A program made the position numbers and the translations under genes. The notes beneath the pieces are model-generated. The model searched no databases and was not told the DNA's origin. It saw nothing but the letters and a program-made list of their open reading frames with translations. Shown piece after piece: positions 679-20,079 of a DNA stretch of 23,130 nucleotides. The DNA is from a virus. The number at the start of each line of letters is the position of its first letter. Within the stretch, counting starts at the first letter, position 1. The stretch lies in UHGV virus genome UHGV-0077013. One strand, 5' to 3'.

Positions 679-759
679 ATCCCTATTCCCATCATTAAAT
701 AATCGGACTAATCCTACCAAGAATCAGCAAAACGACAAAACCCGTACTTAAGCTGGCTA

Positions 760-2541: not shown

Positions 2542-2952
2542 GTGTGCGTTTCTCCTGCTCTATCCTGTTTGCCTGACTGACCAGTAAGGGAATTTCACTG
2601 ATCGGCATATTCAGCAATTCGAAAGGATTAATGCGCCAGTAGCTGGCGCAGTCAAAGAAGCGATCAGTGAGGTATTCAGCCGTCAGGCCTGGAGGAAAAA
2701 ACCAGCCACAAGCCACGCCGCTGCATTCAGGTCTGCCGGAGACATCTGGTCGACAGAGCTTTGCGGCACTTTCGCCAGCCGCACAATGTATTTCGACACC
2801 ACATGCGCCAGAAGTCTGACTGACTCATCCTGATTCATCTGGTAGGGATACCCCAGCTCGCGGACATCCTTCCCGGTGGGTTCATCAAACTCCAGTACGG
2901 AGAGTGTCTCGCCATGAGCAGTAATCGGTTTCTTTAACTCAAGCTCTTTCAT
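2534..2952 (-). CDS. Tail assembly chaperone, -1 frameshift fusion product (E+E' / G-T type)
   Basis: Slippery heptamer T_TTT_TTC on the minus strand (plus 2695-2701) in the 0 frame. The -1 frame continues as ...FFPPGLTAEYLTDRF... to a stop at 2534-2536, just before the tape measure ATG. Matches the track ORF 2534..2716. Confidence 0.6.
2683..2952 (-). CDS. Tail assembly chaperone, short in-frame product (P2 gpE-like)
   Basis: 89-aa ORF between the tail tube and tape measure genes. Its start overlaps the tube stop (TAATG). Contains a slippery heptamer near its 3' end. Confidence 0.75.
   Translation of the reverse strand: MKELELKKPITAHGETLSVLEFDEPTGKDVRELGYPYQMNQDESVRLLAHVVSKYIVRLAKVPQSSVDQMSPADLNAAAWLVAGFFLQA
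2695..2701 (-). other. Programmed -1 ribosomal frameshift slippery site (TTTTTTC)
   Basis: Minus-strand codons are GGT TTT TTC CTC CAG GCC TGA. The heptamer T TTT TTC fits the X_XXY_YYZ rule, and the -1 frame ORF extends 53 codons beyond it. Confidence 0.6.
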
Positions 2953-3308
2953 TACTGGTAATCCCCTTCTTCACCGTGGAACTCAAGATCAACCGTGCCT
3001 TCTTCGGCATTATGGTTCGCTTCGCCGTGCAGCCAGGCAGACGACAGTACATAGACCTGACCGTTCGCCAGCTCGGCAGTGATGGTCATCTCATCAGACG
3101 AGGTGATTTTGCTTACCGGAAAATTCTTCGGCACCTTGAAGGTCCCTTTGACATAAGGCGCACGGTGAGTTTCCTTGCGGTCCACAGAACCGTCCAGGCC
3201 GATGATGTCATCATTGACCGTCCTGTTCATGGGCACCTCAATGCCGCCGGTCAGCGATAGCTGCTGACCGTCAATTTTGAAATAACAGGTTCCCCCGATA
3301 CGGGCCAT
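2952..3308 (-). CDS. Tail tube protein (contractile tail)
   Basis: 118 aa, immediately downstream of the sheath gene with a TAATG stop/start overlap. Size and position are typical for a myovirus tube protein. Confidence 0.7.
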   Translation of the reverse strand: MARIGGTCYFKIDGQQLSLTGGIEVPMNRTVNDDIIGLDGSVDRKETHRAPYVKGTFKVPKNFPVSKITSSDEMTITAELANGQVYVLSSAWLHGEANHNAEEGTVDLEFHGEEGDYQ

Positions 3309-4804
3309 TATGCAGACTCCTCTGAATACTGAAGACGGAACTGGTTAACCACGGCAAAAACACGCAACTGGTTAACATAGTCAGGCGGGAACAGCGTGTT
3401 CAGGCGGTTCGGATCGCTGGCATCACGCTCCACAACCAGGTACTGCTTAAACAGTTCGTAGTTTTCCACGATCCCCGCACGCTCAAGCTGACGGTAGGTT
3501 GCCAGCAGTTCCCCTTTGATTACCGCCGGGGTGACAATCGCCTGACCGGGACCAAAGCGGGTACCGTCGCTGGCAAGCTTGTGACGCCCGTACTTACTGG
3601 TAATGACGGATTTCAGTTTGCGCAGTACATACGCACTGGTATGCAGCGTCTCGCTGTCGAGGTAGCTGTTATCCGCAACCCCGTAAGCATTTTTCCTGTA
3701 CGTGGTGACATCACGCTGAATGCGCAGCACCCCGCTTTCGACATACGCCGTTGCCACGCCATGAGACAGCAGGGTCTGTTGCTCGGTCATCGTGAACCGT
3801 TTCCCCTTCGGCGCAGGCAGCATACCCACCAGCTCACCGGTCTGCGTGGGACGTGCCGGATCGTTGCGGATAAACACCGCTGCGCGGGCGGTACGGCTTG
3901 CCGCCAGCTCATCGGCAGGCGTCTGGGTGTCTTTTTCGTACCCAGCCAGGGTAATGTGCTGCTGGTTAAACTGGTCACCTGCGGTCACCAGTTCTGACAG
4001 CGTGCCGATCTTTGCCGTATACACATGACCATACAGCTGACGCGCATAGCTCCAGCGACCGCTGGTATCGTTCATCTCGGTCACCAGCGTGTTAACGGAG
4101 GCCGTGTCGTTGAACGGCAGGCCGATATAATCAAACGGCTCATCCGCCATTGCAGCCACCGCGCCGGTGAGAACAGGAGAGCCCGTTCCGGCGGTCCCCG
4201 TCGCCACGGCAATCTGTACGCCCGCAGGCAGCACTTCGCCCCCACCAAAGCCGTAGTAATTGAGGCTGACAGGAATTTCATTCCCGCAAAGCCCCTTATG
4301 ACGCGCGGTCAGTGTGACCACGCCTGCCGAAGATGAGGCCGTAAACGGCAGGGCCGGAACGGCATTGATGGCATCCTGGATACTGCTGGCAATCGTCGTG
4401 ACGTTATCGCCGTTGGTCACCGGTGCCTGCACGCGGGTACGTCCCACATACACATTCACCGTGCCGGTTTCGGTTGCTGCTCCGGTCACCGTCAGCGTAA
4501 CCGTTGCCGCCGCGCCTGTGGCTTCCGGAACGGCAATCACATACAGCTCGCCAAACGGGTCGGTCTGGCGATAAGCCTCGACCATACGCGCCAGCTGACT
4601 TCCCGCACCACAAATCTGGCGTGCATAGTCTGCCGACGGCATCAGCACCAGACTGTTGGCAACAATCTCTGCACCGTTATTGGCGTGACCAATCAGCAAC
4701 GATGCCCCGCTGTCCTGTGCAGTATTCGCCGCCGAGTTATCCATTTCCGCATAAAACAGCGGAACCAGCGTATTCGACGGAATGGTGTTAAAGCTTATCG
4801 TCAT
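3308..4804 (-). CDS. Tail sheath protein
   Basis: 498 aa with a sheath-like composition and size. AGGTGA Shine-Dalgarno 7 nt before the ATG at 4802-4804. Followed by tube and chaperone genes. Confidence 0.85.
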   Translation of the reverse strand: MTISFNTIPSNTLVPLFYAEMDNSAANTAQDSGASLLIGHANNGAEIVANSLVLMPSADYARQICGAGSQLARMVEAYRQTDPFGELYVIAVPEATGAAATVTLTVTGAATETGTVNVYVGRTRVQAPVTNGDNVTTIASSIQDAINAVPALPFTASSSAGVVTLTARHKGLCGNEIPVSLNYYGFGGGEVLPAGVQIAVATGTAGTGSPVLTGAVAAMADEPFDYIGLPFNDTASVNTLVTEMNDTSGRWSYARQLYGHVYTAKIGTLSELVTAGDQFNQQHITLAGYEKDTQTPADELAASRTARAAVFIRNDPARPTQTGELVGMLPAPKGKRFTMTEQQTLLSHGVATAYVESGVLRIQRDVTTYRKNAYGVADNSYLDSETLHTSAYVLRKLKSVITSKYGRHKLASDGTRFGPGQAIVTPAVIKGELLATYRQLERAGIVENYELFKQYLVVERDASDPNRLNTLFPPDYVNQLRVFAVVNQFRLQYSEESA

Positions 4805-4966
4805 CGGTGTTCACCTTTTTATTCACGCGCCGGATATCACCCGCTGCTTCACGGCGCAGCCAGTAGTTGTTCTCGTCAACATTTCGCCCTTCGGCGGGCA
4901 AAAGGTCACCGCGGGCAGGGTCAGGCACTGACCGCCCTTTAACAGGTTTCACAAACATGAAGATTC

Positions 4967-5527
4967 TCAGGAAGGAAGGGTTATTTCGGTGTGATGTTCG
5001 ATATCGCCGTCAGGCCCGTTACCGGGATCGAGATAATCAACATCAATCGCCAGCGTTCGCAGTTCATCCAGACTGTTCAGCTCATCCTGCTGGCGGGTAT
5101 CGTCTTCGGTCAGCTCGCTGATGACCGAAAAATCGAACTGATAAATCAGCTCATGACGATTCAGATCCAGCAGCGTGCCGCCGTCATAGGTAATCGGGTT
5201 ACCGCACGCTTCCGGGTTCCAGCCCAGCAGGGCCTTAAAGAGCATCTGCCGGACATCGTCCACCACATCATACGAGGCAAACTGACCGCGCTCATCACGC
5301 CCGTTACTCAGTATGACAACCACGGAGAAGCCCTCTTTCAGCTCCTGCCAGTAGTCGGTCTGGCTTTTGTTTTCTCCCGGAGAGTCATCACCCGGTACCA
5401 CATACGCCGCCGGGAGTTTCAGCTTTCCGACCTCCGGCAGATTTTTGAACTGGGCCGCGCCTGCAACCCGGTTTTCAAAATACGGGCAGCGGGCACGCAG
5501 CGCAGCAATAACAGGCGTCAGTTTCAT
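4967..5527 (-). CDS. Tail-associated protein (tail completion / terminator candidate)
   Basis: 186-aa ORF between the neck genes and the sheath, with an ATGA overlap to the upstream gene. Function inferred from position only. Confidence 0.45.
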   Translation of the reverse strand: MKLTPVIAALRARCPYFENRVAGAAQFKNLPEVGKLKLPAAYVVPGDDSPGENKSQTDYWQELKEGFSVVVILSNGRDERGQFASYDVVDDVRQMLFKALLGWNPEACGNPITYDGGTLLDLNRHELIYQFDFSVISELTEDDTRQQDELNSLDELRTLAIDVDYLDPGNGPDGDIEHHTEITLPS

Positions 5528-6030
5528 CTGTGTCGTCGCTCCGGCTTCAGTGATTTACGCAATTCCCGCGCCAGAAAATAGCGTGTCCAGCTGCGGTTCT
5601 TTTCAAGAGTTTCCACCATAAAGTTATTACGTGGAGCCAGTCGCCAGCCGCTGCCACCGGATGCACCACGATGATGGCTGCGACGACGCTTTGCCCCTCG
5701 CCTCACGCCATAGAACAGAAAAGCCGGATAAAAATCACCGGTGATACGGCGGTTTCCCTCTCCATTACGCTGGTTAGGGGCTATACGTGCCATAAAACCA
5801 GGGCGATGTTTACTGGCTCTGGGTACCATGTAACCAATCGAACGAGCCAGGCGTCCGGTCTGATAACCGGGGTTTTCACCCGGTGCCGACCGCGCACGGC
5901 GCATCACCAGCCGACGGGCATCACGCATATGACGCTGACCAATCGTGACAAACGCCCGCCTGACACGGGCGCGGTTAAAGCGCATCTCCGCGGGCTGCTG
6001 AAAATCAACGTGCAAAAAGGAAGTCGTCAT
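5524..6030 (-). CDS. HK97 gp10-like virion morphogenesis / tail component protein
   Basis: 168 aa, basic, with a PGENPGYQTGRLARSI motif resembling the HK97 gp10 family. Position follows the head-closure gene. Confidence 0.6.
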   Translation of the reverse strand: MTTSFLHVDFQQPAEMRFNRARVRRAFVTIGQRHMRDARRLVMRRARSAPGENPGYQTGRLARSIGYMVPRASKHRPGFMARIAPNQRNGEGNRRITGDFYPAFLFYGVRRGAKRRRSHHRGASGGSGWRLAPRNNFMVETLEKNRSWTRYFLARELRKSLKPERRHR

Positions 6031-6415
6031 TGTTGCCTCCGTGACTCTGCCTACATTCGCCCAGCTCCGTACACTCCAGCAGCAGAAAGCGCCGCGCCCC
6101 GTTCAGATCGCGCTGACGTTTCACCCGGTACACACTGTCACCGCAGACCACCTCATAATCAGCGGTGATCCCCCGGCGGTAACGAATGGTGATGTAATGG
6201 GTGATGGCGTCCCCGGTCTGCGCGGTTTCCTGCCAGGTGGTGGCACTGGTCTGGATAACCTTCGCCCATGTCCGGAACGTAACCGGGTATTGAGGCTCCA
6301 CGCCAAAGTTATCCGCGGGCATATCCACCCGCTGGCGAATCAGGACGCGTTTATTCAGTTCGCCGGGGTCCGGCAGAATGTAGGTTGCGCTGGTCTGCGC
6401 CTGACGAATTTTCAT
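6005..6415 (-). CDS. Head closure / head-tail joining protein
   Basis: 136 aa with ...ITHYITIRYRRGIT... resembling head-tail joining proteins. Coupled to the connector gene. Confidence 0.6.
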   Translation of the reverse strand: MKIRQAQTSATYILPDPGELNKRVLIRQRVDMPADNFGVEPQYPVTFRTWAKVIQTSATTWQETAQTGDAITHYITIRYRRGITADYEVVCGDSVYRVKRQRDLNGARRFLLLECTELGECRQSHGGNNDDFLFAR

Positions 6416-6735
6416 TGCGGAAAGTACCTGTACGGGCCGACAAGCCAGCCAAAACTCTGCGGCATGTCGAGTTTCTCCACTTCCGTAACCGACGAGCGGT
6501 TTTCGTAAAAATGGCTGATAAGCATCAGCATCCCCAGACGAATATCATCCGGCAGTTGCAGCCCGTCCGGATCGCTGTCCGGAATGGTTTCATCCGGAGC
6601 ATAGAGCTTCCGGTTCAGATACGTTTCCGTCCGCTTTTGCGCCGCACAGGCCAGCAGTTGCAGATGGCGGTCATCAGCATCGAAATCCTCATCCAGCCGG
6701 AGTTGGGCTTTAATCTCTTCCATTGTCAGAAGCAT
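6412..6735 (-). CDS. gp6-like head-tail connector protein
   Basis: 107 aa; the N-terminus MLLTMEEIKAQLRLDEDFDADD...LLACAAQ is typical of gp6-like connector proteins. Located after the capsid gene. Confidence 0.7.
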   Translation of the reverse strand: MLLTMEEIKAQLRLDEDFDADDRHLQLLACAAQKRTETYLNRKLYAPDETIPDSDPDGLQLPDDIRLGMLMLISHFYENRSSVTEVEKLDMPQSFGWLVGPYRYFPQ

Positions 6736-6737
6736 AC

Positions 6738-6938
6738 TCAGCCCTCTTTACTGGTCGTGGCTTTTTTCTCTTTTGTCGCTTTACTGCTTTTTGCACTGGT
6801 TCCGCGCTCTGCTAACCCGGCCTGAAGTGCAATCTCCTGCACCCGGGCAGGAAGCGCCCCGTCGTCATACTCACCGGCCCGAATGACCTCAACACGCATA
6901 CCGTCCGGTGACCATTTCAGATCTTGTTTCAGGATCAT
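6738..6938 (-). CDS. Small hypothetical protein between capsid and connector genes
   Basis: 66-aa ORF with ATG at 6936-6938, coupled to the connector gene start. Lys/Ser/Thr-rich C-terminus and only a weak Shine-Dalgarno. Confidence 0.4.
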   Translation of the reverse strand: MILKQDLKWSPDGMRVEVIRAGEYDDGALPARVQEIALQAGLAERGTSAKSSKATKEKKATTSKEG

Positions 6939-6959
6939 GATTCTTCACCCGTCAGAACA

Positions 6960-6980
6960 GGGGGCGCGGTTCCGCGCCCC
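6960..6980 (-). terminator. GC-rich perfect hairpin just 3' of the major capsid gene (attenuator / mRNA stabiliser candidate)
   Basis: GGGGGCGCGGTTCCGCGCCCC is a perfect 8-9 bp GC stem lying 8 nt downstream of the capsid stop (6988-6990). No U-tract follows on the transcript, so it is not a classic intrinsic terminator. Confidence 0.4.
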
Positions 6981-6987
6981 TGAGTGA

Positions 6988-8193
6988 TTACGCCGCTGCA
7001 ATCTTCAGCAGTTTGATGGCCTGCGAATCGACCAGCATCCCGCCGGTGCGCTTGGTGGTATAAAAACCGACAAACGGTTTATTGGTGTACGGGTCACGCA
7101 GAATGCGGGTGCCGATACGGTCAACGATGGTGTAACCCCGTTTGAAGTTACCAAATGCAATGGCTTTCGCATCAGCGGCGATATCCGGCATCTGTTCGTT
7201 TTCAGCGATACCGTAACCCGCCAGAGAGGACGGCTGCCCCAGTTCCAGCCCCGGACGCCACAGATAGTTACCCTCGGTGTCTTTCAGCAGACGGATGGCA
7301 AACAGGCTGTTGTTGTTCATCATGAACTTCGCGCCAGTGCGGTGTGCCTTACGCAGCGTGTAAATCAGTTTGATAATGGCGTCTGCGGTCACCGCGGTCG
7401 CTTCGCCGGATACAATATGCTGAAGTTTGCCGAACGCCCGGACCTTGTCGGTTTCATCGGTGGATTCATACGCCAGGAACCCTTTCGGCTTCTTGGTGCC
7501 ATCGCCTGAGGTAAAGGCAATTTCTTCCTGTTCGGCAAATTCGGTTGCCAGCTCGCTGTTGATCCAGGCCTCCACGTTGAAGAAGGCATCGTCCAGCATT
7601 TTCTGGGTAGCCTGCGGGTTGCCGTAGATTTCCCCCATGAGAGGTTCAATCAGCTCCAGTCTGGAGGTGGCAGTCTGGGATCGCGTATCCGTTTCCCCCA
7701 CCCATCCGGAAGCCGTACCGCCCAGATTCACCAGTTTTTTGTAGTCGGAACCGCCAACGGTGATCACCGTGGCTTCCTGACGCATCACCACTTCATCTTT
7801 CAGCAGGTTAAGAATGTTGCGATCCAGTTCTTCCGGCACGGCATAGCCACCGTCTTCATCGGTGCCCACCTGCAATGCCTTGCGCTCCAGATCGCGCAGA
7901 CCGTCTTCACGGCCTTTACGCAGGAAGCCCACAAACGCCTCTTTATGCTCGGTGGCCAGTTTATTTTGCGCACCACCTGCCGGACGTTTCAGCTCAAGCA
8001 GCTCTTTTTCAAGGTCGCTTTTGAGATTTTCCAGCTCGCTGAGTTTCCCGTTCAGGGTTTCCACCTGCCCGGCAAGTTTGCCTTTTTCCTGCTCAATCGC
8101 ATCCACGCGCTTGTCGTTCTTTGCTTTGAAGTCGTCAAACTTCTGCTGCAGTTCCTGCGCGACCTGTTCGACATCTTTAATATCTACCGCCAT
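6988..8193 (-). CDS. Major capsid protein, HK97-like with N-terminal delta domain
   Basis: 401 aa. The N-terminal ~100 aa are coiled-coil-like (KLSELENLKSDLEKELLELK), followed by an HK97-fold-like body. Strong AGGAGA Shine-Dalgarno before the ATG at 8191-8193. Gene order is portal, protease, capsid. Confidence 0.9.
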   Translation of the reverse strand: MAVDIKDVEQVAQELQQKFDDFKAKNDKRVDAIEQEKGKLAGQVETLNGKLSELENLKSDLEKELLELKRPAGGAQNKLATEHKEAFVGFLRKGREDGLRDLERKALQVGTDEDGGYAVPEELDRNILNLLKDEVVMRQEATVITVGGSDYKKLVNLGGTASGWVGETDTRSQTATSRLELIEPLMGEIYGNPQATQKMLDDAFFNVEAWINSELATEFAEQEEIAFTSGDGTKKPKGFLAYESTDETDKVRAFGKLQHIVSGEATAVTADAIIKLIYTLRKAHRTGAKFMMNNNSLFAIRLLKDTEGNYLWRPGLELGQPSSLAGYGIAENEQMPDIAADAKAIAFGNFKRGYTIVDRIGTRILRDPYTNKPFVGFYTTKRTGGMLVDSQAIKLLKIAAA

Positions 8194-8207
8194 CGTATTT
8201 CTCCTGA

Positions 8208-8894
8208 TTAGAAGTTCAGATTTTTCAGTGCATTCAGTGCAGAGCTCACATCCTCAGCGTCGCGCAGGGACAGTGCGCCATAGCCCCCGGCCATGAATGC
8301 TTTGGCCTGGGTACGGGAGAGTCCGACATCACGCAGGACTCTTTCGATTTTTTTCTGTTCGGGGATTTCCCCGCGGGCCAGTGCGTTCTTGACGTCGCTG
8401 ATCCGCGCCTCGTCGTTAGACGGGAACGTCACCAGGCTGACTTCCCAGAGGTCGATTTCTTTCAGCAGAAAGGCTTCTTTGCTCCGGTCGTATTCCCAGT
8501 CTTTCAGGACGTACCCAATAGAAAGGCCGGTTAACGAACCGGCCTTCATGTGTGCATGTGCGCGTTTTGCGAGGGGATCATCATCAATAAGCAACCGTCC
8601 CCTGACGTAAAGCCCGACATCGTCTTCCTTCATTTCGGTGTAAACACCGATGGGTTCATCCATGCGGTGCTGCCAGAGCAGCGCAGGTAACGCTTTTCTG
8701 TCACTCCACGCCCGCAGGGAAGCAGCAAATGCCCCGGACATCACCACATCATCGTGGCTGTCCTTTACACCAAAGACGGAGCCATACCCTTCAAACTCAC
8801 CGGAGTCACTGACAGATTTCAGACTCAGCGGTACATCAAGACGTTGTTTCGTCTGCATTGGCGTTATCCTTCTGCTTACCGGCCTTACTGCCAT
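8208..8894 (-). CDS. Prohead protease (HK97 family)
   Basis: 228 aa with ...FEGYGSVFGVKDSHDDVVMSGAF..., typical of HK97-type prohead proteases. It overlaps the portal 3' end, so the true start may be the internal ATG near 8858. Confidence 0.8.
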   Translation of the reverse strand: MAVRPVSRRITPMQTKQRLDVPLSLKSVSDSGEFEGYGSVFGVKDSHDDVVMSGAFAASLRAWSDRKALPALLWQHRMDEPIGVYTEMKEDDVGLYVRGRLLIDDDPLAKRAHAHMKAGSLTGLSIGYVLKDWEYDRSKEAFLLKEIDLWEVSLVTFPSNDEARISDVKNALARGEIPEQKKIERVLRDVGLSRTQAKAFMAGGYGALSLRDAEDVSSALNALKNLNF

Positions 8895-10077
8895 CGGAGG
8901 GTTTCGTGGTCATGTTCATCGGTGTGAGATAGACATCACCACCGGGACGCGGATTCATATCTTCCAGGTCGCGGCAGTCATTGGGAGAGTAAATTCCCCA
9001 GTTAATCCCGGTGGCGTAGGCTTCAAAACGGGACTTCATATCCCCGCGCAGTAACGCCCCGGCGTTAAATTTGGCGTAATAAACGCCCTGCTTACTTTTT
9101 CGTACCAGTCCGGTGTTGATCCGCTGTTCGATGCGGGTCAGATACGGCACCAGTGAATAGTTGATAAATCCGAGCCCCAGTTCTTCGATATTGTTGAAGG
9201 TGGCGCGATCGGTGTTCTGCACCATGTGCAACGGCACCCGGAACAGACGACAGATTTCTTCAAGCTGAAACTTGCGGGTTTCCAGGAACTGGCTGTCCTC
9301 GGCGTTCAGCGCCATCGACTTCCAGTCCAGCCCCATCTCAAGGATCATCGGGCGGTGAGCATTACCAAGCCCGGTGTGACGCTCCTCAAAATCTTTCTTC
9401 AGGCGCTCGTAAGCCTGATCTGACAGCGTCTGCTCTGTACGCAACACACCCGACGTCACCGCGCCATTGCTGAACAGTCTGGCCCCGTGCTCTTCGGTCG
9501 CTGCCGCCAGCGATATTGCCTCGCGGGCATAGGCGATGGGATTCAGTCCCACCAGACCGTCCAGCGTCAGCGTGCGCACATGCCAGATATCTTCCTGGCT
9601 CAGTACATCCGTGGAGCCGTCCGGGAATGTGACCTGGTAAACCGGTTCCCAGCTACTGTTAAGCTTCGGTACCACACAACCTGGGTCGACGGGCAGCAGT
9701 TCAGCCACTTCGCCAAATGCTTTCACTTTGTAGGCGTAAAAGTTTCCCCGCAGGCACAGACAGGTGACCACCAGCTCCCAGAACTCCTGCGGCGTCATAT
9801 AGCCATTGGGACGCGTGGAGATCAGCTTATGCAGACGTTCGCCGGTGGCTCTCTGTTTCAGGCTGCCGTTCAGGTGATACAGGTTGCAGGGCAACATCCC
9901 GACCGACTCCGCCAGCACCCTGACGCAGGAAAAAACCGCCGTCAGTCGCATGGCCCGCTGGCTGCTGATCTGCTTTCCGGTATAGGTGTCATATGACAGC
10001 CCGATAGCATCCGCCAGCTCTGCTGGCGTGGTCACCGGTGCGTCACTTTTTCGTTGAAATAATCCCGAAAAGAACAC
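8836..10077 (-). CDS. Portal protein (HK97 family)
   Basis: 413 aa, in the canonical position after the large terminase. GTG start at 10075-10077 preceded by a GGAGGT Shine-Dalgarno. Confidence 0.88.
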   Translation of the reverse strand: MFFSGLFQRKSDAPVTTPAELADAIGLSYDTYTGKQISSQRAMRLTAVFSCVRVLAESVGMLPCNLYHLNGSLKQRATGERLHKLISTRPNGYMTPQEFWELVVTCLCLRGNFYAYKVKAFGEVAELLPVDPGCVVPKLNSSWEPVYQVTFPDGSTDVLSQEDIWHVRTLTLDGLVGLNPIAYAREAISLAAATEEHGARLFSNGAVTSGVLRTEQTLSDQAYERLKKDFEERHTGLGNAHRPMILEMGLDWKSMALNAEDSQFLETRKFQLEEICRLFRVPLHMVQNTDRATFNNIEELGLGFINYSLVPYLTRIEQRINTGLVRKSKQGVYYAKFNAGALLRGDMKSRFEAYATGINWGIYSPNDCRDLEDMNPRPGGDVYLTPMNMTTKPSDGSKAGKQKDNANADETTS

Positions 10078-10259
10078 TATTTACCTCCGCCGACAGACGG
10101 CTGTGTACGGTCGAGATATCGCGCCACCAGCCACGACCAGAACAGGCACAGCGCCCCGGCAACAACAAACCCCGCCGGGGGATAAATCAGCCAGGCACCA
10201 TACGCCAGCAAAAGCGCACCCAGCACGCCCACCAGAGGCGCGAGAATCAGCATGATCAT
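10077..10259 (-). CDS. Small two-helix membrane protein, function unknown
   Basis: 60 aa ([26 protein letters not shown]...[19 protein letters not shown]) with two predicted transmembrane segments. GAGGTAA Shine-Dalgarno 5 nt before the ATG. Wedged between the terL stop and the portal start. Confidence 0.55.
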
Positions 10260-10270
10260 AATTACCTCAG

Positions 10271-12004
10271 TTAAAGCGAGCGGATCCCGTAGGACTCAAT
10301 GTGATCAGACAGCGTGTCTTCTTTCTCGTACAGCATGGCTCTGCCAACCGCCATAATCAGCGCAACTGCACCATCAATTTTGTTTTCCGCCTGCTCTTTG
10401 ACGGGCTTCACCACATCATCGTTACCCGGAATGGTTTTGCCGACCACATTGCCGATACACCAGGTCATGATGGGATTGCCGTCATGATGAAAGCGCTCCG
10501 ATTCAATCGCCGCTTCCAGTTCTTTCATCGGATCGGACATGTTGGTGTAGTTCTGAATGATGGTGATGGGGTTCAGGTCTTCATCAGCAAGGTCATGCGA
10601 CAACCCGGTCGCCCCGAAGGGGTCGATGGGTGACTCACTGACCGGGCTGATTTTGTTCGCCGCTTTGGCCTCCTCGAGGATGTAGCGATAATCCACCTCT
10701 GCACCATCGGTAACGGTCAGAACGCCCATTTCCACCCATTTCTGAAAGCGTTCGGCTGTCCGGCGATCTTCATTTTTCTCGACGCTGTACACCGTGTCAT
10801 ACGGTACCCAGAAGCGCGGAGCCACACTGTAGTAATGCGTTTTACCGTCAATCTCGCGGGTATAAAGTCGCGCCATGCTGTTCATATCCAGCTTACGCGC
10901 CAGGTCAAAGGCCAGAATGCACGGCTGCCCCTCGAACTGCTCAAGGGTCAGTGATTTATCCTCGCAGCTCTGCCAGCTCACCAGGTTGAAATACGCCGAA
11001 CGCGCCGACACCCAGATATTGAGGTGTTTTGTTTTAAAGACGTTTGCCAGACGGGCGTTATTTTTCGCACGCTGCTGCTGACTTAACAAAAATTCGCGAT
11101 AAACCGACACGCCAATATTTGGATTGGCTTTTTCCAGCACCTGCGGGTCGGTCCAGTCGTCACCTTCATCAACGGTATAGATGATCCCGAACAGTTCATC
11201 GTTAGGCACCGAGCCGTTGAGCATCTCGATAACTTCCCGCCGCTTGTCGTAGCACGGCCCCTCAATGTTGTACCCGGCAGTAGTAATGGCCCACATCAGT
11301 GGCTGACGTCGCGCCCCCATCCCGGTAAGCATCGTGGTGTAAAGCGCATCGGTGGCGTGCTCGTGATATTCATCCACCACCGCACAGTGGGGTGATGATC
11401 CATCACCGGGGTTACCGATCAGCGGTTCAAACCGCGCGCCATCCTCCGGACGGTTCATGTTTGAGGCGTTAACCTCAATCCCGAACGCTTCCGTCAGCAT
11501 GGGTGTGCGTTTACACATCAGTCGCGCCGGGCGAAAGACTTCCCACGCCTGTTTCTCTGTCGTGGCACCGGAATACACTTCCGCGCCAAACTCGTTATCA
11601 CAGGCAAAACAATACAGGGCAACACCGGCAGAGATTGCTGATTTGCCGTTCTTACGGGGGATTTCGGTATACACCTCCCGGAAGCGGCGCAACCGGGTGC
11701 CTTTATTGACCCAGCCAAACGCACAGCAGATCACAAATAGCTGCCACGGCTCCAGCGTGATGGGCATCCGTTTAAATGCCCACTCACCCTTGGTGTGCGG
11801 CAACAGCTGAATAAATTTGGCGGCCCGTTCAGCCAGATCCTTGTCGAAGCGGTAACGAAACGACTTACTTTTTTCCGCCATCAGGTCATCAAGATGGCGC
11901 TGGCAGGCCTGAATCACAAACTGGCAGGCCACAATCTTTCCGCGCACGACATCCCGGGCATACTGATTGGCAGCATTTACGTTGGGGTAAGATTTCCGGC
12001 TCAT
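10271..12004 (-). CDS. terL: Terminase large subunit
   Basis: 577 aa with Walker A-like IPRKNGKS and a C-terminal nuclease-like region. Follows the small terminase gene. Confidence 0.92.
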
Positions 12005-12017
12005 GATTCGATGATTT

Positions 12018-12503
12018 TCAGATTGTCAGAAACGGGTTAGTGGCTTTCTTCTTCCCCGCCAGGCCAATCAGACGCTGTCGGCTGCTGGGGTCGAGTCCGA
12101 GCATTGCCCCCGTGCTGCTCATCTCGGACTCCTGTTCTTTTTTGGCGGTCAGCTCCGGATTTTTGACCATGCCACCCATTGCACCGGTGATGGTGTTACC
12201 CTGTCTGGCAATATTTTTCACGGCACGTCGCCAGAACTCATAGGCCACACACCACCGCTCAAGTACCGCCAGGTCAGTCACGCACAGCAGGCCCTGACCG
12301 CAGAGTTCTTTGGTTGTCAGTTGCCACATGATCGTGGCGAGAGGGAGATCTTCTTCAGCGAACCACTCCGGTGGCTCAACACCTTTGATGGGCGTAAAAA
12401 CAGGTTCATCTTTATTCAGGGCTCGCTTGCCGGGGTTTCCGGCCAGCGCCTTGCGCGCCGTTGGCTTGGGGCGACGCCCGGAACGCCCCGCCGTTCCAGC
12501 CAT
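12018..12503 (-). CDS. terS: Terminase small subunit (P27-family-like)
   Basis: N-terminus [30 protein letters not shown] is typical of P27-family small terminases. Preferred start is the ATG at 12501-12503 with an AGGAG Shine-Dalgarno; the track ORF begins at an upstream GTG (12512). Confidence 0.85.
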
Positions 12504-12713
12504 ATGCGGCACTCCTGGTTAAATTTCATTTTTCGCGGGTATAAAAAAACGATGGGGCGGGCAGTCCCGGATAGTCAGGGCTGTAGAGATTTGACTACCC
12601 CCTCCCCACTGGATTCAGGTTACTGCTATTCCGTTAATCGCTGCTTACGGGGATAGCTGCGTTGTGATTTTGACCATTCAGGTCGCCGCTATTTCCTCAC
12701 CGATTGGGTGCTA

Positions 12714-12742
12714 CGCGTGCGCGTACTTGTCCCGAAATACCA
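12714..12742 (-). promoter_or_regulatory. Conserved ~27-nt motif in the late-operon leader, also present in the early region at 19061-19089
   Basis: Plus-strand CGCGTGCGCGTACTTGTCCCGAAATACCA here versus GCGCGTGCGTACTTGTCCCGAAAACACCA at 19061-19089. Degenerate copies of the GTGCGCGTACT core occur at 18850 and 18966. Confidence 0.35.
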
Positions 12743-12753
12743 GAAACCGCCAG

Positions 12754-12775
12754 CCAGAGGATGATTTCCCTCTGG
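12754..12775 (-). terminator. Hairpin 3' of the PerC-like gene (weak terminator / attenuator candidate)
   Basis: Inverted repeat CCAGAGG-ATGATTTC-CCTCTGG. Only short U-runs follow on the transcript. Confidence 0.3.
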
Positions 12776-12779
12776 TGGT

Positions 12780-13061
12780 CTACCTTTGCCTCTTGCCGCC
12801 ATTTAACCGGAAGGCGTTACCGTTCGGTTGCGCTATCCCCATGCGGTGTTGCGTTTCGGTAACAGCTTTATGCAGGTCGCCAAAGTCCTCAACCTTCACG
12901 GGCGGGCGCTTCACGTTCTCCAGACACGTTTCACGGCGGCGCTTTATCCATTCCCGATCATCGTCCTCGGTGCATAACAGCATGACTTCCATCCATCGCG
13001 CTGCGGCGCGTCGGTACAGCCCTTTTGCTTCCAGATCCTCGGCTTTACTGTCGTTTACCAT
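12780..13061 (-). CDS. PerC-family-like small transcriptional regulator
   Basis: 93 aa; AEDLEAKGLYRRAAARWMEVM...DREWIKRRRETC resembles the PerC/Pch-type activator pattern as recalled. GGGGAG Shine-Dalgarno; sits directly upstream of the packaging operon. Confidence 0.5.
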   Translation of the reverse strand: MVNDSKAEDLEAKGLYRRAAARWMEVMLLCTEDDDREWIKRRRETCLENVKRPPVKVEDFGDLHKAVTETQHRMGIAQPNGNAFRLNGGKRQR

Positions 13062-13833: not shown

Positions 13834-13887
13834 TGCCCACCTTCGTTATAAGCTACCCCCCCCATAGAATCTTTTTGGGGGTGTAAT

Positions 13888-14136
13888 ATCCCTACCAATC
13901 CCTACTAACTGTCTCAGGCCACGAATGGCAAGGCTTTCAGACTGGTAGGCATTCAATTTTGTTGCCCTACATAACCCTACTTATCCCTACTAAATCACTT
14001 CAACGGCATTTTACTGCCTGTTTTATTTGGTAGGGATATGTAGGGATAAGTAGGGATAAAAATATATATCCCTACCTAGTTTAAAGCCTTGCTACGTCTG
14101 GCCTCGTCTCGTTTTTAGTAGGGCAGTAGGGATAAG
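13888..14136. repeat. Iteron array (about 11 copies of a GTAGGGATA-type unit) flanking an AT-rich spacer: putative replication origin / crr-like site
   Basis: CCCTAC cores at 13890, 13900, 13965, 13975, 13985 and 14070. GTAGGG cores at 14030, 14040, 14050, 14118 and 14126, plus a partial at 13944. Several are in 10-bp phased tandems. Opposed triplets flank a 39-bp AT-rich spacer (13991-14029). Lies immediately 3' of the primase/helicase gene. Confidence 0.7.
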
Positions 14137-18135: not shown

Positions 18136-18311
18136 GCCGCCACCTCACGAACGCGGGTAATCTGGATGTGGGAAAGGCGTTCATTTCTGGCCTGATTTAG
18201 CGCCTCAGCTTTGGCGCTGATCGCGCTGCGGGCGTCAACGATATAAACGAACTCGACTAATTCGCCGCTCCGGGCGGTGGCGCATCCTGCAACACGGAAG
18301 TAATTAAGCAT
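18132..18311 (-). CDS. Hypothetical small early protein
   Basis: Preferred ATG at 18309-18311 (MLNYFRVAG...), overlapping the upstream stop as CATGCTTAA. The track ORF starts at an upstream TTG (18341). Confidence 0.45.
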   Translation of the reverse strand: MLNYFRVAGCATARSGELVEFVYIVDARSAISAKAEALNQARNERLSHIQITRVREVAA

Positions 18312-18495
18312 GTGCGCCCCCTGTGCGAATACGTCCGGCAAAAAAGCAAACGTGATCCCGCGCCAGAATGCGGCGGGCTTCCTGCTCAGTCTCTGCGGCG
18401 ATATGGTGAATTTTGACGGTAATTGTCGGCATATCGCGGCGAACTGCGGCGATAATCCAGATAAATTGCGGTTTTTGGGTAGGGGTAGTAGCCAT
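18304..18495 (-). CDS. Hypothetical small early protein
   Basis: Strong CAGGAGG Shine-Dalgarno 8 nt before the ATG at 18493-18495 (MATTPTQKPQFIWIIAAVRR...). The longer 119-aa track ORF is probably an over-extension. Confidence 0.5.
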   Translation of the reverse strand: MATTPTQKPQFIWIIAAVRRDMPTITVKIHHIAAETEQEARRILARDHVCFFAGRIRTGGAHA

Positions 18496-18653
18496 TATGG
18501 CAGCCTCCTGTAACTGGGATTTATTCCCACCACCGGAAACGCCAATTTCACTGGTGGTGAGCTGAACAGGGTTGGCGTAACCGGCGTTACAGGAAACCGG
18601 CGCGGATCGCTCCGCCCCCATCCAGCCCACCATTACTTTTTGAGCAATATGGG

Positions 18654-19253
18654 CTATAGCCATATCGCTGGGAAAGAGGTGTGCAGATGCGAGGACACAA
18701 AAAAGACGCTCGGCGCGTCATGTGTCGCCTGTAACATTATCAGGACGCCAATCCCGGCACCAGATTTTGCTGGTGCGCTATAACCATAAACCGGGTTGGC
18801 GATAGTCGGCAAGCCCTTTTTTATGGACTCCAGAAACTCACCTTCGCGCGTGCGCGTACTGTTGCATAAATTCCCTGCATCTAGTGGTGATGTCAGAAAA
18901 ATCTTCCCGCCTCGTGTAGTGATGATGGGAAAATCTTCCTCGCGTAGTGACCCCCAATAAATCTTCGTGCGCGTACTGGTCTCGAAACTCTCCTCGTCAC
19001 CACGACGAGAAAATGAGGAGCTGGCATTAGCTGGCACTGTTATGCCAGCTTCGCATTCATGCGCGTGCGTACTTGTCCCGAAAACACCAAGATTTGTAAA
19101 GATCTGGCGGTGGCAAATGTCAGGTTTTGACAGGTTCCAAACGTCGCTATTTGTCGCAATCTGGCGGCGGGCTGCTTTGCTCCAGACGTTAACATTTGCA
19201 TACATCAGGCCAGCCAGGGGAAAGGCTTTATTCTGGATGGCGGCATTAAGCAT
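18654..19253 (-). CDS. Questionable ORF spanning the repeat-dense region
   Basis: 199 codons; the ATG at 19251-19253 overlaps the antirepressor stop (CATGCTTAA). The translation is low-complexity and the DNA is full of direct repeats and hairpins, so it may be non-coding or encode only a short N-terminal peptide. Confidence 0.2.
   Translation of the reverse strand: MLNAAIQNKAFPLAGLMYANVNVWSKAARRQIATNSDVWNLSKPDICHRQIFTNLGVFGTSTHAHECEAGITVPANASSSFSRRGDEESFETSTRTKIYWGSLREEDFPIITTRGGKIFLTSPLDAGNLCNSTRTREGEFLESIKKGLPTIANPVYGYSAPAKSGAGIGVLIMLQATHDAPSVFFVSSHLHTSFPAIWL
18846..19171. repeat. Repeat-dense region between the antirepressor gene and the small early genes
   Basis: Three degenerate tandem units (AAATCTTC...CGYGTAGTGA) at 18897, 18930 and 18958. 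GTGCGCGTACT-type cores at 18850, 18966 and 19063. A 23-bp direct repeat ATTTGTxxxxATCTGGCGGxGG at 19092-19114 and 19149-19171. Hairpins at 19028-19049 and 18993-19009. Confidence 0.5.
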
Positions 19254-20079
19254 GATTAGCCCCCAGATGTTTAGCTAACCAGCGCTGAGAGAGGCGGATT
19301 AGCTCGGCTTTACGCAGGTCATATCCCATACCCATATCAATCAGCGTAATGTTGGTACTCTCCAGGTAGGCGAGGTGTTCCAGTTGCCCTGCGTTCATGC
19401 TGTCCCGTGGTTCGCCAGTAATGTCATTTGCCTGCGCCCACTGCTTCGCCGTCATGCCACCCAGCACGATACGGGCGATCATGTTGCTCTCGTTGCTGTA
19501 GTGGCGAGCCTGCGTCTGTTTACCCTGTTCTGCGCGGGCGCTTTCCAGCGCTACGCACATCGGTTTAAACAGGTTGGCGGCACTGATACGGGCTTTTAGC
19601 TGGCGACGATAGCGGGCGGCGATTTCAGGCACGCTACGCTGTAATTCTTCCTCGCACTGGATGAAATAACGGCGGATAGCGCGGCCCTGTTCAGTGCGTT
19701 CGATCATTGCCAGTTCTTTCGCCATTCCGACACTTAACAGATAGTCTTTGCCGGGTCTGCCAGAGTGCTTAATCTTGCTGTAAGCCGCGCCATTCGGGCT
19801 TTTCCCCAGATTTGGGGAAATTGTTTTATGGACTGAGTAATCGTGCCCAATGGTGAAGTCATATTCAGAGATGCGATCAGTGATCCATGTAGAGAAGTCT
19901 TTTCCCACGCCCAACGCTTTGTGTAACGCTTTTGCGCTAACAATATTGGTTTCACGCCCACCGATATGACCAGGAATAACCGGGACAATTGTGGCAAATT
20001 CATTACCGTTAATTGTTCCCTGATAGGCGTTCAGATGAGGGGCGGCCTCAGAAATTAATCTGCTTTTTTCGATGTTCAT
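19246..20079 (-). CDS. Antirepressor (AntA-like N-terminal and KilA-C/ANT-like C-terminal domains)
   Basis: 277 aa. ...KDFSTWITDRISEYDFTIGHDY... resembles the AntA domain and ...LSVGMAKELAMIERTEQGRAIRRYFIQCEE... the KilA-C/ANT domain. Confidence 0.7.
   Translation of the reverse strand: MNIEKSRLISEAAPHLNAYQGTINGNEFATIVPVIPGHIGGRETNIVSAKALHKALGVGKDFSTWITDRISEYDFTIGHDYSVHKTISPNLGKSPNGAAYSKIKHSGRPGKDYLLSVGMAKELAMIERTEQGRAIRRYFIQCEEELQRSVPEIAARYRRQLKARISAANLFKPMCVALESARAEQGKQTQARHYSNESNMIARIVLGGMTAKQWAQANDITGEPRDSMNAGQLEHLAYLESTNITLIDMGMGYDLRKAELIRLSQRWLAKHLGANHA

What the first reader, a model, noticed from the sequence alone, without database searches (positions are those of the whole stretch)
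18846..19171. Repeat-dense, hairpin-rich block between the antirepressor gene and the small early genes
At least three repeat families and two hairpins occupy about 330 bp that the ORF track covers with a low-complexity 199-codon ORF. Alternative pairing is possible around 19020-19049, where AGCTGGCA can pair with either of two TGCCAGCT copies. This looks more like a regulatory RNA or protein-binding region than a gene. No repressor gene was recognised in the window, so an RNA-mediated immunity or termination control, by analogy to P4, is one hypothesis.
Basis: partly seen in the sequence, partly recalled or inferred. Interest (0 to 1): 0.6.

Follow-up and report, generated by a model that had tools for sequence, protein, structure and literature searches.

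The report
Repeat-filled leader of P4-type immunity ORF
The repeat block is not a separate RNA gene: it is an expanded front part of a long reading frame, like gene eta of satellite phage P4, that runs over the prophage's RNA-based immunity switch lying just downstream, and that frame is kept open although its amino acids are barely conserved.

Summary
The direct repeats are real: 15 repeated 8-mers against 0.9 expected. The hairpins are no more than chance and show no covariation. Just downstream on the minus strand lies a complete P4/P1-type RNA immunity cassette. It has a promoter-like site, an IsrK/seqA-like target with terminator (18776-18699), a C4/CI-like RNA (18637-18550) and an icd/kil-like gene (18495-18304). 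The 199-codon ORF is the front of an eta-like ORF. It starts on the stop codon of the Ant gene, and its later parts align with P4 Eta. It is cut short here only because the terminator T-run has 6 T instead of 7; with 7 T, as in nine genomes with otherwise identical cassettes (one aligned), it is a 318-codon ORF in frame with icd. In all 32 related loci compared this frame is the only long open one, and indels keep the frame. Codon-position composition and substitutions look non-coding, and dN/dS is 0.53. The flagged block is an in-frame insertion relative to P4 Eta. It consists mostly of degenerate units of about 30 nt that also occur in non-coding DNA elsewhere. Most likely, translation of the frame carries read-through transcripts past the immunity terminator, as in P4. 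The role of the units is unknown; they may bind a protein upstream of the promoter. This is a known kind of system in a new variant.

The parts
19246..20079 (-). AntA/AntB-type antirepressor gene. Its stop codon overlaps the ATG of the eta-like ORF (ATGCTTAA).
   Evidence: Pfam AntA, E = 4e-21. PHROG anti-repressor Ant. PGAP annotation in identical E. coli genomes.
18654..19253 (-). The 199-codon ORF, which is the 5' part of an eta-like ORF. It is truncated here by a -1 frameshift in the T-run at 18704-18699.
   Evidence: ORF list. Adding one T gives a 318-codon ORF that ends with the icd-like protein. Genomes with the same cassette have T7 and a single annotated CDS. Residues 147-185 align with P4 Eta residues 13-51 (E = 2e-5).
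18846..19171 (-). The flagged block, codons 28-136 of the ORF. It is an in-frame, repeat-rich insertion relative to P4 Eta. Relative to the common ~226-codon form it carries two extra inserts, of 38 and 39 codons.
18849..19083 (-). Six degenerate units of about 30 nt, all in the direction of transcription: 19083-19062, 18987-18966, 18965-18938, 18937-18906, 18905-18874 and 18870-18849. The conserved hairpin module lies between units 1 and 2.
   Evidence: the repeat finder families D1 and D2. Pattern searches. The same units occur in related loci.
19092..19170 (-). Two 22-nt direct repeats (CCRCCGCCAGAT...ACAAAT) flanking AACCTGTCAAAACCTGACATT.
   Evidence: Related loci carry the same pieces in a different order.
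18993..19050 (-). The conserved hairpin module. AGCTGGCA (19050-19043) can pair with TGCCAGCT at 19036-19029 or at 19026-19019. CTCGTC (19009-19004) pairs with GACGAG (18998-18993).
   Evidence: The sequence is conserved across genera but without compensatory changes.
18783..18824 (-). Inferred PLE-like promoter: A-tract ATAAAAAAG (18824-18816), -35 TTGCCG (18812-18807), an 18-nt spacer, and -10 TATGGT (18788-18783). The IsrK model starts 7 nt further on.
   Evidence: Read from the sequence. It is conserved in all related loci that were fetched with it. It aligns with the region upstream of the P4 isrK/seqA match. It is below the threshold of the consensus scan, so it is inferred, not shown.
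18699..18789 (-). seqA/IsrK-like target hairpins (boxes a1 at 18752-18746 and b1 at 18735-18728) with an intrinsic terminator (stem 18719-18705, T6 at 18704-18699).
   Evidence: Rfam isrK, 75 bits, and c4-a1b1, 43.8 bits. Terminator scan. Box coordinates.
18550..18637 (-). C4/CI-like antisense immunity RNA (b2 loop at 18593-18586, a2 at 18577-18572).
   Evidence: Rfam C4, 76.9 bits, E = 1e-13. Box coordinates.
18304..18663 (-). The 119-codon ORF, which is the 3' part of the eta-like ORF. Its ATG at 18663 overlaps the stop of the 199-codon ORF. The likely independent product is the 63-aa icd/kil-like protein from ATG 18495. Its SD (18509-18504) overlaps target box b' (18514-18507).
   Evidence: NCBIfam phage_ICD_like at residues 67-114. 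It aligns with P4 Eta residues 80-191 (E = 1e-18). Box coordinates.
12716..12745 (-). A further copy of the repeat unit (TTTCGGGACAAGTACGCGCACGCG), in the non-coding gap between the perC-like gene and terS.
   Evidence: It is read in a different frame from the copies in the block.

Best explanation
The block is the expanded 5' portion of a P4 eta-like ORF that overlies an RNA-based immunity cassette.

All genes of the element are on the minus strand. Transcripts arriving from the upstream int/alpA/ant genes are translated from an ATG that overlaps the Ant stop codon. This frame runs through the block, the internal promoter, the IsrK/seqA-like terminator and the C4/CI-like RNA. In the T7 form it ends as the icd/kil-like protein.

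In the lysogen only the internal promoter would fire. Its untranslated transcript would end at or after the IsrK terminator and yield the C4-like RNA. That RNA pairs with boxes a1/b1 and a'/b' and would keep icd and the replication genes off. When upstream transcription is switched on, ribosomes translating the eta-like frame would follow the polymerase across the terminator and target sites. Such transcripts would then escape immunity, as described for P4 eta.

The sequences, the homology, the frame conservation and the lack of a coding signature are shown here. Promoter activity, termination and the anti-termination effect of translation are inferred from P4.

The ~30-nt units in the block are DNA-level elements kept free of stop codons in this one frame. 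Their own role is not established. The best guess is that they are protein-binding or architectural sites upstream of the internal promoter.
For: 1. The immunity cassette lies directly downstream: Rfam isrK, c4-a1b1 and C4. P4 itself gives the same three matches inside eta.
2. P4 Eta aligns collinearly with the two window ORFs. The block falls between Eta residues 12 and 13.
3. In all 32 distinct related loci the frame that covers the block is the only long open one: 206-356 codons, against 6-94 in the other two frames. By my arithmetic on the same table, the 13 different start-to-promoter distances are all multiples of 3. Only 4 of 2000 shuffles of the window ORF give an open frame this long.
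4. By my reading of the junction sequences, the start codon overlaps the stop of whichever gene lies upstream (Ant, DUF4222, a Bro-like gene, or vis in P4), usually with an SD-like sequence.
5. There is no coding signature. GC by codon position is 0.50/0.54/0.50. Variable columns fall 9:11:10 across codon positions in the conserved module and 19:11:20 in the L003-type group. There dN/dS is 0.53, against 0.13-0.29 in four neighbouring genes (two short ones gave 0.46 and 1.37 on 4-6 variable sites). No protein family covers residues 1-143.
6. One extra T restores a 318-codon ORF in frame with icd. Nine genomes have the cassette 1 nt longer; one was aligned and the extra base is a T in that run, and that genome is annotated with a single CDS there.
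7. Tommasini et al. 2023 (PMC10111431) describe this logic for P4 eta and report C4 and isrK matches in Gram-negative PICIs.
8. Unit arrays also occur outside eta contexts, with stop codons in all frames in five of six arrays. The core motif is read in different frames at different sites.
Against: - No expression data exist. The promoter matches only 8 of 12 consensus positions and was not reported by the scan.
- In this window the frame is broken after the terminator by the T6 run, so ribosomes would have to re-initiate at ATG 18663, which has no SD-like sequence before it. In the L003-type loci the ORF is out of frame with icd.
- dN/dS of 0.53 is below 1 and second codon positions vary least. 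Some constraint on the peptide is therefore not excluded.
- The sequence of the conserved hairpin module is conserved across genera for reasons this model does not explain.
- The role proposed for the ~30-nt units rests on position and recurrence alone.
Confidence: 0.72

Rival explanations
1. The units and the conserved module are binding sites for a regulator (element-encoded Ant/Bro-type, AlpA-like or PerC-like protein, helper-encoded factor, or a host protein such as Fis) that sets the activity of the internal immunity promoter. This is compatible with the eta-like reading and would add an operator or enhancer function to the block.
For: - The units always point in the direction of transcription, and the last one sits at a fixed distance from the promoter in most loci that carry it (-33 from the anchor in 14 of the 16 listed).
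- Eight of 12 arrays are followed within 26-50 nt by CCATAAAAA. That includes arrays in plainly non-coding DNA after a terminator.
- One more copy lies in the gap before terS.
- The conservation is at DNA level, with no codon-position bias.
Against: - No binding protein has been identified.
- Copy number ranges from none to five core motifs per locus, and P4 has none.
- The non-eta arrays may be relics of decayed eta/promoter regions rather than working sites: in L077 the sequence after TCCATAAAAAGGG diverges.
- The motif is absent from the region upstream of the alpA-like gene.
Confidence: 0.3
2. The repeats are functionally neutral. The frame must only stay open, so in-frame tandem duplications and recombination between short shared motifs accumulate as filler.
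For: - The two inserts relative to the common form are 38 and 39 codons.
- Copy number and order of the modules differ between close relatives.
- Diversity in the block is high: 17.5% of sites vary, against 2-7% in the two flanking genes (DUF4222 and icd-like), by my arithmetic.
- Only about 16 of 5426 E. coli genomes carry all or most of this block.
Against: - The same units recur in non-coding DNA elsewhere in related elements and in this window.
- The conserved module is 87% identical across genera.
Confidence: 0.2
3. The ORF encodes a functional Ash/Eta-type protein whose N-terminal part is repetitive and fast-evolving.
For: - The frame is maintained, the start is coupled to the upstream gene, and dN/dS is below 1.
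- PGAP annotates the ORF as an ash-family or Icd-like protein.
- Tommasini et al. count P4 eta among the Bro-network genes.
Against: - Codon-position composition and substitution spectrum are flat.
- No family match covers residues 1-143. The Pfam Phage_ASH match lies only over the DNA that encodes the IsrK-like and C4-like RNAs.
- The core motif is read in different frames at other sites.
- In the L003-type block a unit-like stretch lies in the opposite orientation. This evidence is weak: a 12/12 core match, E = 0.006.
Confidence: 0.12
4. The block itself is a structured regulatory RNA or riboswitch-like termination control.
For: - Hairpins with alternative pairing are present.
- Folding is about 2 sd better than shuffles.
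Against: - The block lies upstream of the inferred promoter.
- No Rfam match has an E-value below 4.
- Inverted repeats are at chance level.
- Folding is equally good on the opposite strand.
- No stem pair shows a compensatory change, and all 12 non-standard pairs are plain breaks.
Confidence: 0.04
5. The repeats are iterons of a replication origin, by analogy with P4 ori and crr.
For: Direct repeats lie about 2.2 kb upstream of a P4-family primase gene.
Against: - A typical origin lies directly downstream of the primase gene, at 13886-14104. It has direct and inverted TATCCCTAC iterons around an AT-rich core.
- The block motifs do not resemble those iterons or the P4 type 1 and type 2 repeats.
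Confidence: 0.03

Closest known systems
Satellite phage P4 immunity region: PLE promoter, seqA, CI RNA, seqC, and the nested genes eta and kil (Forti et al. 1999, as summarised in PMC10111431)
   Same: - Same order of parts, with the same Rfam matches in P4 itself.
- A long ORF starts on the stop of the upstream gene, spans the promoter and both RNA elements, and ends with a small kil/icd-like protein.
- Protein-level alignment to Eta holds over the promoter/seqA part and the CI+Kil part.
- A P4-family primase lies downstream.
   Different: - About 400 nt, including the flagged block, are inserted between the conserved N-terminus and the promoter.
- The upstream partner is an Ant gene, not vis/alpA.
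- The frame is interrupted by a T6 run in this copy.
- The element also carries full head, sheath, tube and tape-measure genes, so it is not a minimal satellite.
Gram-negative PICIs with a 'Bro zone' that encodes immunity RNAs (Tommasini, Mageeney and Williams 2023, PMC10111431)
   Same: - The zone order is integrase/AlpA, Bro/Ant with C4 and isrK matches, replication, then late genes.
- Those authors already note CI and seqA homologues inside Bro-zone genes of PICIs.
   Different: A term search of that paper found no mention of a repeat array of this kind. This element's late zone amounts to a complete virion gene set.
Phage P1/P7 immI operon (c4, icd, ant)
   Same: - It has a C4 antisense RNA with a/b boxes and an icd-like gene whose ribosome-binding site is covered by box b'.
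- Alternative cassettes with matched loop and target changes resemble P1/P7 heteroimmunity.
   Different: Here ant lies upstream of the cassette, not downstream and coupled to icd. The genes under control are small early genes and a primase.
Gifsy-1 isrK-orf45-anrP locus of Salmonella (PMC4825925)
   Same: It has an IsrK-type RNA with an intrinsic terminator that can be read through. The paper itself calls IsrK a structural homologue of P4 SeqA.
   Different: No orf45-anrP follows here, and a C4/CI-like RNA and an icd-like gene follow instead. The activating mode of IsrK was not tested here.

Membership tests
P4-type RNA immunity with nested eta/kil ORF | seqA-like target hairpins with a terminator, followed by a CI/C4-like RNA on the same strand | tested here: met
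   Rfam isrK 75 bits, c4-a1b1 43.8 bits (just under its 46.7 cut-off) and C4 76.9 bits. P4 gives the same three matches.
P4-type RNA immunity with nested eta/kil ORF | Complementarity between the RNA's loop and single-stranded boxes and targets both upstream and downstream of it | tested here: met
   b2 CCTGTAAC pairs with GTTACAGG at 18735-18728 and 18514-18507. a2 CGCCAA pairs with ATTGGCG at 18752-18746 and 18546-18540. In L001 all three b boxes differ together (CTCTGAT in the loop, ATCAGAG in both targets).
P4-type RNA immunity with nested eta/kil ORF | A long ORF that starts upstream of the internal promoter on the stop of the preceding gene, spans both RNA elements and ends in frame with kil/icd | tested here: inconclusive
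   As sequenced, the window ORF stops 45 nt after the terminator and a second ORF overlaps its stop. With T7, as in the aligned relative PK6, it is one 318-codon ORF in frame with icd. The feature is met in L001, L002, L004 and L005. In the L003-type loci the ORF is out of frame with icd.
P4-type RNA immunity with nested eta/kil ORF | Sequence homology to P4 Eta | tested here: met
   Eta 13-51 aligns with ORF199 147-185 (49% identity, E = 2e-5). Eta 80-191 aligns with ORF119 2-112 (41% identity, E = 1e-18). The flagged block has no counterpart in Eta.
P4-type RNA immunity with nested eta/kil ORF | A constitutive promoter internal to the ORF | tested here: inconclusive
   TTGCCG-18 nt-TATGGT with an upstream A-tract is present in every related locus fetched with a pattern that spans the A-tract and -35, and is placed 7 nt before the IsrK model start. 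It matches only 8 of 12 consensus positions, so the scan did not report it.
P4-type RNA immunity with nested eta/kil ORF | Translation of the long ORF prevents termination of transcripts that start upstream | not testable with these tools
   This needs nonsense mutants and transcript assays. The only support here is frame conservation without a coding signature.
P1/P7 immI operon | ant lies downstream of icd and is translationally coupled to it | tested here: not met
   The Ant gene (20079-19246) is upstream of the cassette. Small genes and a primase follow icd.
Gifsy-1 isrK-orf45-anrP | orf45 and anrP follow IsrK | tested here: not met
   A C4-like RNA and an icd-like gene follow IsrK.
Structured non-coding RNA within 18846-19171 | A match to a described RNA family, or base pairs supported by covariation | tested here: not met
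   No Rfam match has an E-value below 4. Among 18 pairs, none has a change on both sides in 9 sequences.
Conventional protein-coding gene | Codon-position bias in composition and substitutions, and membership of a protein family | tested here: not met
   GC by codon position is 0.50/0.54/0.50. Variable sites fall 9:11:10 and 19:11:20. dN/dS is 0.53, against 0.13-0.29 in four neighbouring genes. No family match covers residues 1-143.
Iteron-type replication origin | Iterons next to an AT-rich region, associated with the initiator gene | tested here: not met
   Such a structure lies at 13886-14104, directly after the primase gene, with different repeats.

The most novel reading that the evidence does not exclude
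The ~30-nt units are an undescribed family of orientation-fixed cis elements in P4/PICI-type elements. On this reading they are operator or enhancer sites through which an element-encoded or helper-encoded protein tunes the promoter of the RNA immunity cassette. Because they sit inside a frame that must stay translatable, they have been purged of stop codons. Protein-based control would then be layered on an RNA-based immunity system, within a single overlapping sequence.
Probability: 0.25. Interest if true: 0.5.

Novelty: new variant of a known kind. Interest (0 to 1): 0.3.

Why it matters
The result corrects an annotation. The 'ash family' or 'Icd-like' proteins of 200-350 aa that PGAP calls in hundreds of Enterobacterales genomes are eta-like frames laid over an RNA immunity switch, not ordinary proteins. 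It extends the P4 eta/kil logic to an element with a full set of head and contractile-tail genes. It also gives a clear natural example of an ORF selected for being open rather than for what it encodes. The repeat units, the T6/T7 polymorphism in the terminator and the swapped immunity cassettes are ready-made handles for experiments on how such elements escape their own immunity on induction.

Tried and rejected
- **Replication origin:** rejected, because a separate iteron origin lies next to the primase gene and P4 ori repeats are unrelated.
- **Rho-utilisation site in the block:** the 80-nt GC-skew profile shows no sustained C>G on the transcript.
- **C4 target decoys in the units:** on reading the block sequence I saw no exact a or b box in it.
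- **Structured RNA:** no Rfam match and no covariation.
- **Tandem Repeats Finder:** found nothing, because the units are too degenerate.
- **Collection scan with TTTCGNGACCAGTACGCGC:** it mostly returned unrelated GC-rich phage contigs, in which that DNA sits in an ORF translating to ...VFRWL...FRDQYARAREAQAD, which I take (from memory, not tested) to be a small-terminase gene. This is a coding coincidence, and those loci were set aside.
- **Searches of phage and plasmid collections:** these matched only the cassette or the promoter-proximal 60-80 nt, not the block.
- **The cf-PICI paper:** it says nothing about this region, and its gene order (morphogenesis genes before hnh-terS-terL) differs from this element.
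- **Forti et al. 1999 (PMC94026):** the paper is not held in the library. The P4 mechanism is therefore cited through PMC10111431 and PMC4825925.
- **Inverted unit in the L003-type block:** only a weak match (12/12 core, E = 0.006), used as a hint only.

Full report
**Setting.** All genes in the window lie on the minus strand. From high to low coordinates they run as follows.
- A tyrosine integrase, an AlpA-like HTH gene, a 144-aa gene and an AntA/B antirepressor (20079-19246).
- The flagged block, followed by small genes and a P4-family primase (16651-14153).
- An iteron origin (13886-14104), an SSB gene and a perC-like activator.
- terS, terL, portal, protease, capsid, connectors, tail sheath, tail tube and tape measure.

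The element therefore joins a P4/PICI-type early region to a complete set of virion genes. The block region with its flanks (18780-19250) is 100% identical in nine complete E. coli genomes, and the next six are at least 98.9% identical.

**Checking the observation.** The direct repeats are real and highly non-random. There are 15 repeated 8-mers against 0.92 +/- 1.22 in 1000 dinucleotide shuffles. It has a T-rich head (AAGATTTT or GAGTTTC) and a tail CA(C/G)TACGCG..AGG. Six copies lie between 19083 and 18849. A separate pair of 22-nt repeats lies at 19170-19092.

The hairpins exist, but they carry no statistical or evolutionary support. Inverted k-mers are at chance level. Folding is about 2 sd better than shuffles on both strands alike. 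In nine homologues no stem pair changes on both sides, and every change that leaves a non-standard pair breaks the pairing.

**What lies next to the block.** Rfam places an IsrK RNA at 18776-18699, overlapping the 'a1, b1 targets of C4' model at 18789-18737. It places a C4 antisense RNA at 18637-18550. IsrK ends in an intrinsic terminator.

The C4 loop CCTGTAAC is complementary to GTTACAGG in IsrK, and again at 18514-18507. The second site overlaps the AGGAGG that precedes ATG 18495 of a 63-aa icd-like protein. A second box pair (CGCCAA with ATTGGCG) is arranged in the same way.

Upstream of IsrK lies a conserved promoter-like site: ATAAAAAAG, then TTGCCG, 18 nt, then TATGGT. The IsrK model begins 7 nt after it. 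This site is too weak for the consensus scan to report, so promoter activity is inferred.

P4 itself gives the same three Rfam matches in the same order. The Gifsy-1 paper calls IsrK a structural homologue of P4 SeqA.

**The 199-codon ORF is the front of an eta-like frame.** In P4 the ORF eta starts at ATGATGATG on the stop codon of vis. It spans the promoter, seqA and CI, and ends as Kil. Tommasini et al. summarise the mechanism:
- The internal constitutive promoter gives transcripts that terminate through the CI/seqA interaction.
- Kil is a truncated form of Eta.
- Eta translation prevents termination of transcripts from the upstream late promoter.

P4 Eta residues 13-51 align with residues 147-185 of the window ORF. 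Eta residues 80-191 align with the overlapping 119-codon ORF. The N-termini also resemble each other, by my reading of the translations: MLNAAIQNKAFPLAGL against MMMPALQKLPFSGLP.

The break between the two window ORFs is a single-base matter. The terminator tail has six T here. Nine genomes have the cassette 1 nt longer and otherwise identical over 321 nt; in the one I aligned (PK6) the extra base is a seventh T. One extra T gives a single 318-codon ORF that ends with the icd-like protein. Only strain GDSC2239PM shares T6, and there PGAP calls two CDSs. In M9682-C1, which carries a different cassette, the frame is continuous at 303 codons.

**The frame is selected; the peptide barely so.** Several results point the same way.
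- In all 32 distinct related loci the frame covering the block is the only long open one. These loci come from E. coli and from genomes labelled Escherichia sp., Scandinavium, Atlantibacter, Lonsdalea, Enterobacter, Buttiauxella and Budvicia, plus IMG/VR contigs. The open frame is 206-356 codons, against 6-94 in the other two frames.
- The 13 different distances from start codon to promoter are all multiples of three, by my arithmetic.
- The start codon always overlaps the stop of whichever gene lies upstream.
- The block shows no codon-position bias in GC (0.50/0.54/0.50). Real neighbouring genes have GC2 well below GC1.
- Variable sites are spread evenly over codon positions: 9:11:10 in the conserved module and 19:11:20 in the L003-type group.
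- dN/dS is 0.53, against 0.13-0.29 in four neighbouring genes; two very short ones gave 0.46 and 1.37 on 4-6 variable sites.
- No protein family covers residues 1-143. The Pfam Phage_ASH match lies only over the DNA that encodes the IsrK-like and C4-like RNAs.

This is the pattern expected if ribosome passage matters and the product does not.

**Anatomy of the block.** A protein search found about 170 predicted ORFs of this kind, named 'Icd-like' or 'ash family'. Among the 13 aligned, the commonest form is about 226 codons. It is seen in proteins named from Enterobacter, Citrobacter, Klebsiella, Salmonella and Edwardsiella. Relative to it, the window form carries two in-frame inserts:
- 38 codons, holding the 22-nt repeat pair and unit 1;
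- 39 codons, holding units 3-6.

About 16 of 5426 E. coli genomes carry all or most of the block, whereas 565 share the promoter-proximal 60-80 nt. Between the inserts lies a module of about 90 nt that holds both hairpins. It is 87% identical across genera.

**The units act at DNA level.**
- They always point in the direction of transcription. In most loci that carry them the last one sits at a fixed distance from the promoter.
- Arrays also occur in non-coding DNA of related elements, in three cases directly followed by a TCCATAAAAAGGG sequence. Five of the six arrays outside eta contexts have stop codons in all three frames.
- One further copy lies in this window between the perC-like gene and terS, at 12745-12716.
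- The core motif is read in different frames at different sites.

What the units do is not established. Binding sites for a regulator of the internal promoter is the most attractive idea. Neutral in-frame duplication in a weakly constrained frame, or relics of recombination, cannot be excluded.

**Alternatives set aside.** An origin function is unlikely, because a typical iteron origin lies next to the primase gene. A rut-like C-rich transcript is not seen. A free-standing structured RNA has no support.

**Verdict.** The RNA switch, however, is the adjacent cassette. The block is an expanded, repeat-filled stretch of the eta-like frame that overlies that cassette. The architecture is known from P4 and has been noted in PICIs. 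The new features here are the in-frame repeat expansion, the Ant gene as upstream partner and the full-phage context. Interest is modest.

Noticed in passing
window 18500-18760, compared with L001 (NZ_CP024275): The window and E. coli M9682-C1 are identical across the block and from the icd-like gene onward, but carry different immunity cassettes. The C4 loop, the IsrK box and the box over the icd ribosome-binding site all change together (CCTGTAAC/GTTACAGG against CTCTGAT/ATCAGAG). This looks like a heteroimmune swap of the P1/P7 kind.
   Followed up: partly
window 18699-18704: The U-tract of the IsrK terminator is T6 here and in strain GDSC2239PM. In PK6 it is T7, and eight more genomes have the cassette 1 nt longer. 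The one-base difference splits a 318-codon ORF into the 199- and 119-codon ORFs. It may be a homopolymer sequencing error or a real slippage variant.
   Followed up: yes
window 13886-14104: This is the likely replication origin, directly after the P4-family primase gene. It has direct and inverted TATCCCTAC/GTAGGGATA iterons around an AT-rich centre, including an 80-nt imperfect inverted repeat.
   Followed up: partly
window 12716-12790: The non-coding gap between the perC-like activator gene and terS holds one copy of the repeat unit. Before it lies a GGGAAATCAT...CTGGCGG stretch that also occurs inside the eta-like blocks of L005, L012 and L042.
   Followed up: partly
window 19122-19142; L033, L045, L047, L051, L065, L066: There is a family of self-duplicated 10-nt motifs of the form CCTNNNA-AAA-CCTNNNA. 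Examples are AACCTGTCAAAACCTGACA, CCTAATAAAACCTAATA and CCTCACAAAACCTCACA. The variable triplet differs from copy to copy. In L051 the motif is in the opposite orientation. Function unknown.
   Followed up: no
L044 (P4) 8168-8584; PGAP CDSs in L001-L005: RefSeq still annotates a 137-aa 'cI gene product, transcriptional repressor' in P4 over the CI RNA. Pfam Phage_ASH and the NCBI names 'ash family protein' and 'Icd-like' for proteins of 200-350 aa largely describe translation across the seqA/CI RNA genes.
   Followed up: partly
window 1-12512: The element carries terS, terL, portal, protease, capsid and connectors, plus tail sheath, tail tube and tape-measure genes. It is therefore more than a capsid-forming satellite. 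Its gene order also differs from that described for proteobacterial cf-PICIs.
   Followed up: partly
L048-L050, L054-L056, L058, L059, L064, L070, L071, L073, L075, L076: The 19-nt core TTTCGNGACCAGTACGCGC also occurs in unrelated, mostly GC-rich phage contigs. There it sits in an ORF translating to ...VFRWL...FRDQYARAREAQAD, which I take (not tested) to be a small-terminase gene. I treated this as a coincidence of coding sequence.
   Followed up: no
window 19204-19240; same position in L002, L003, L019, L033: The first ~15 codons of the eta-like ORF (..CCAGAANAAAGNCTTTNNNCTGGCTGGC..) are conserved whatever gene lies upstream, and they contain a CCAG...CTGG inverted repeat. In P4 the corresponding CTGGCTTGCC is the -35 region of the promoter. 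In the window a second GGGCTTGCC lies about 400 nt downstream, at the promoter. This suggests that the block arose by insertion or duplication at this point.
   Followed up: no
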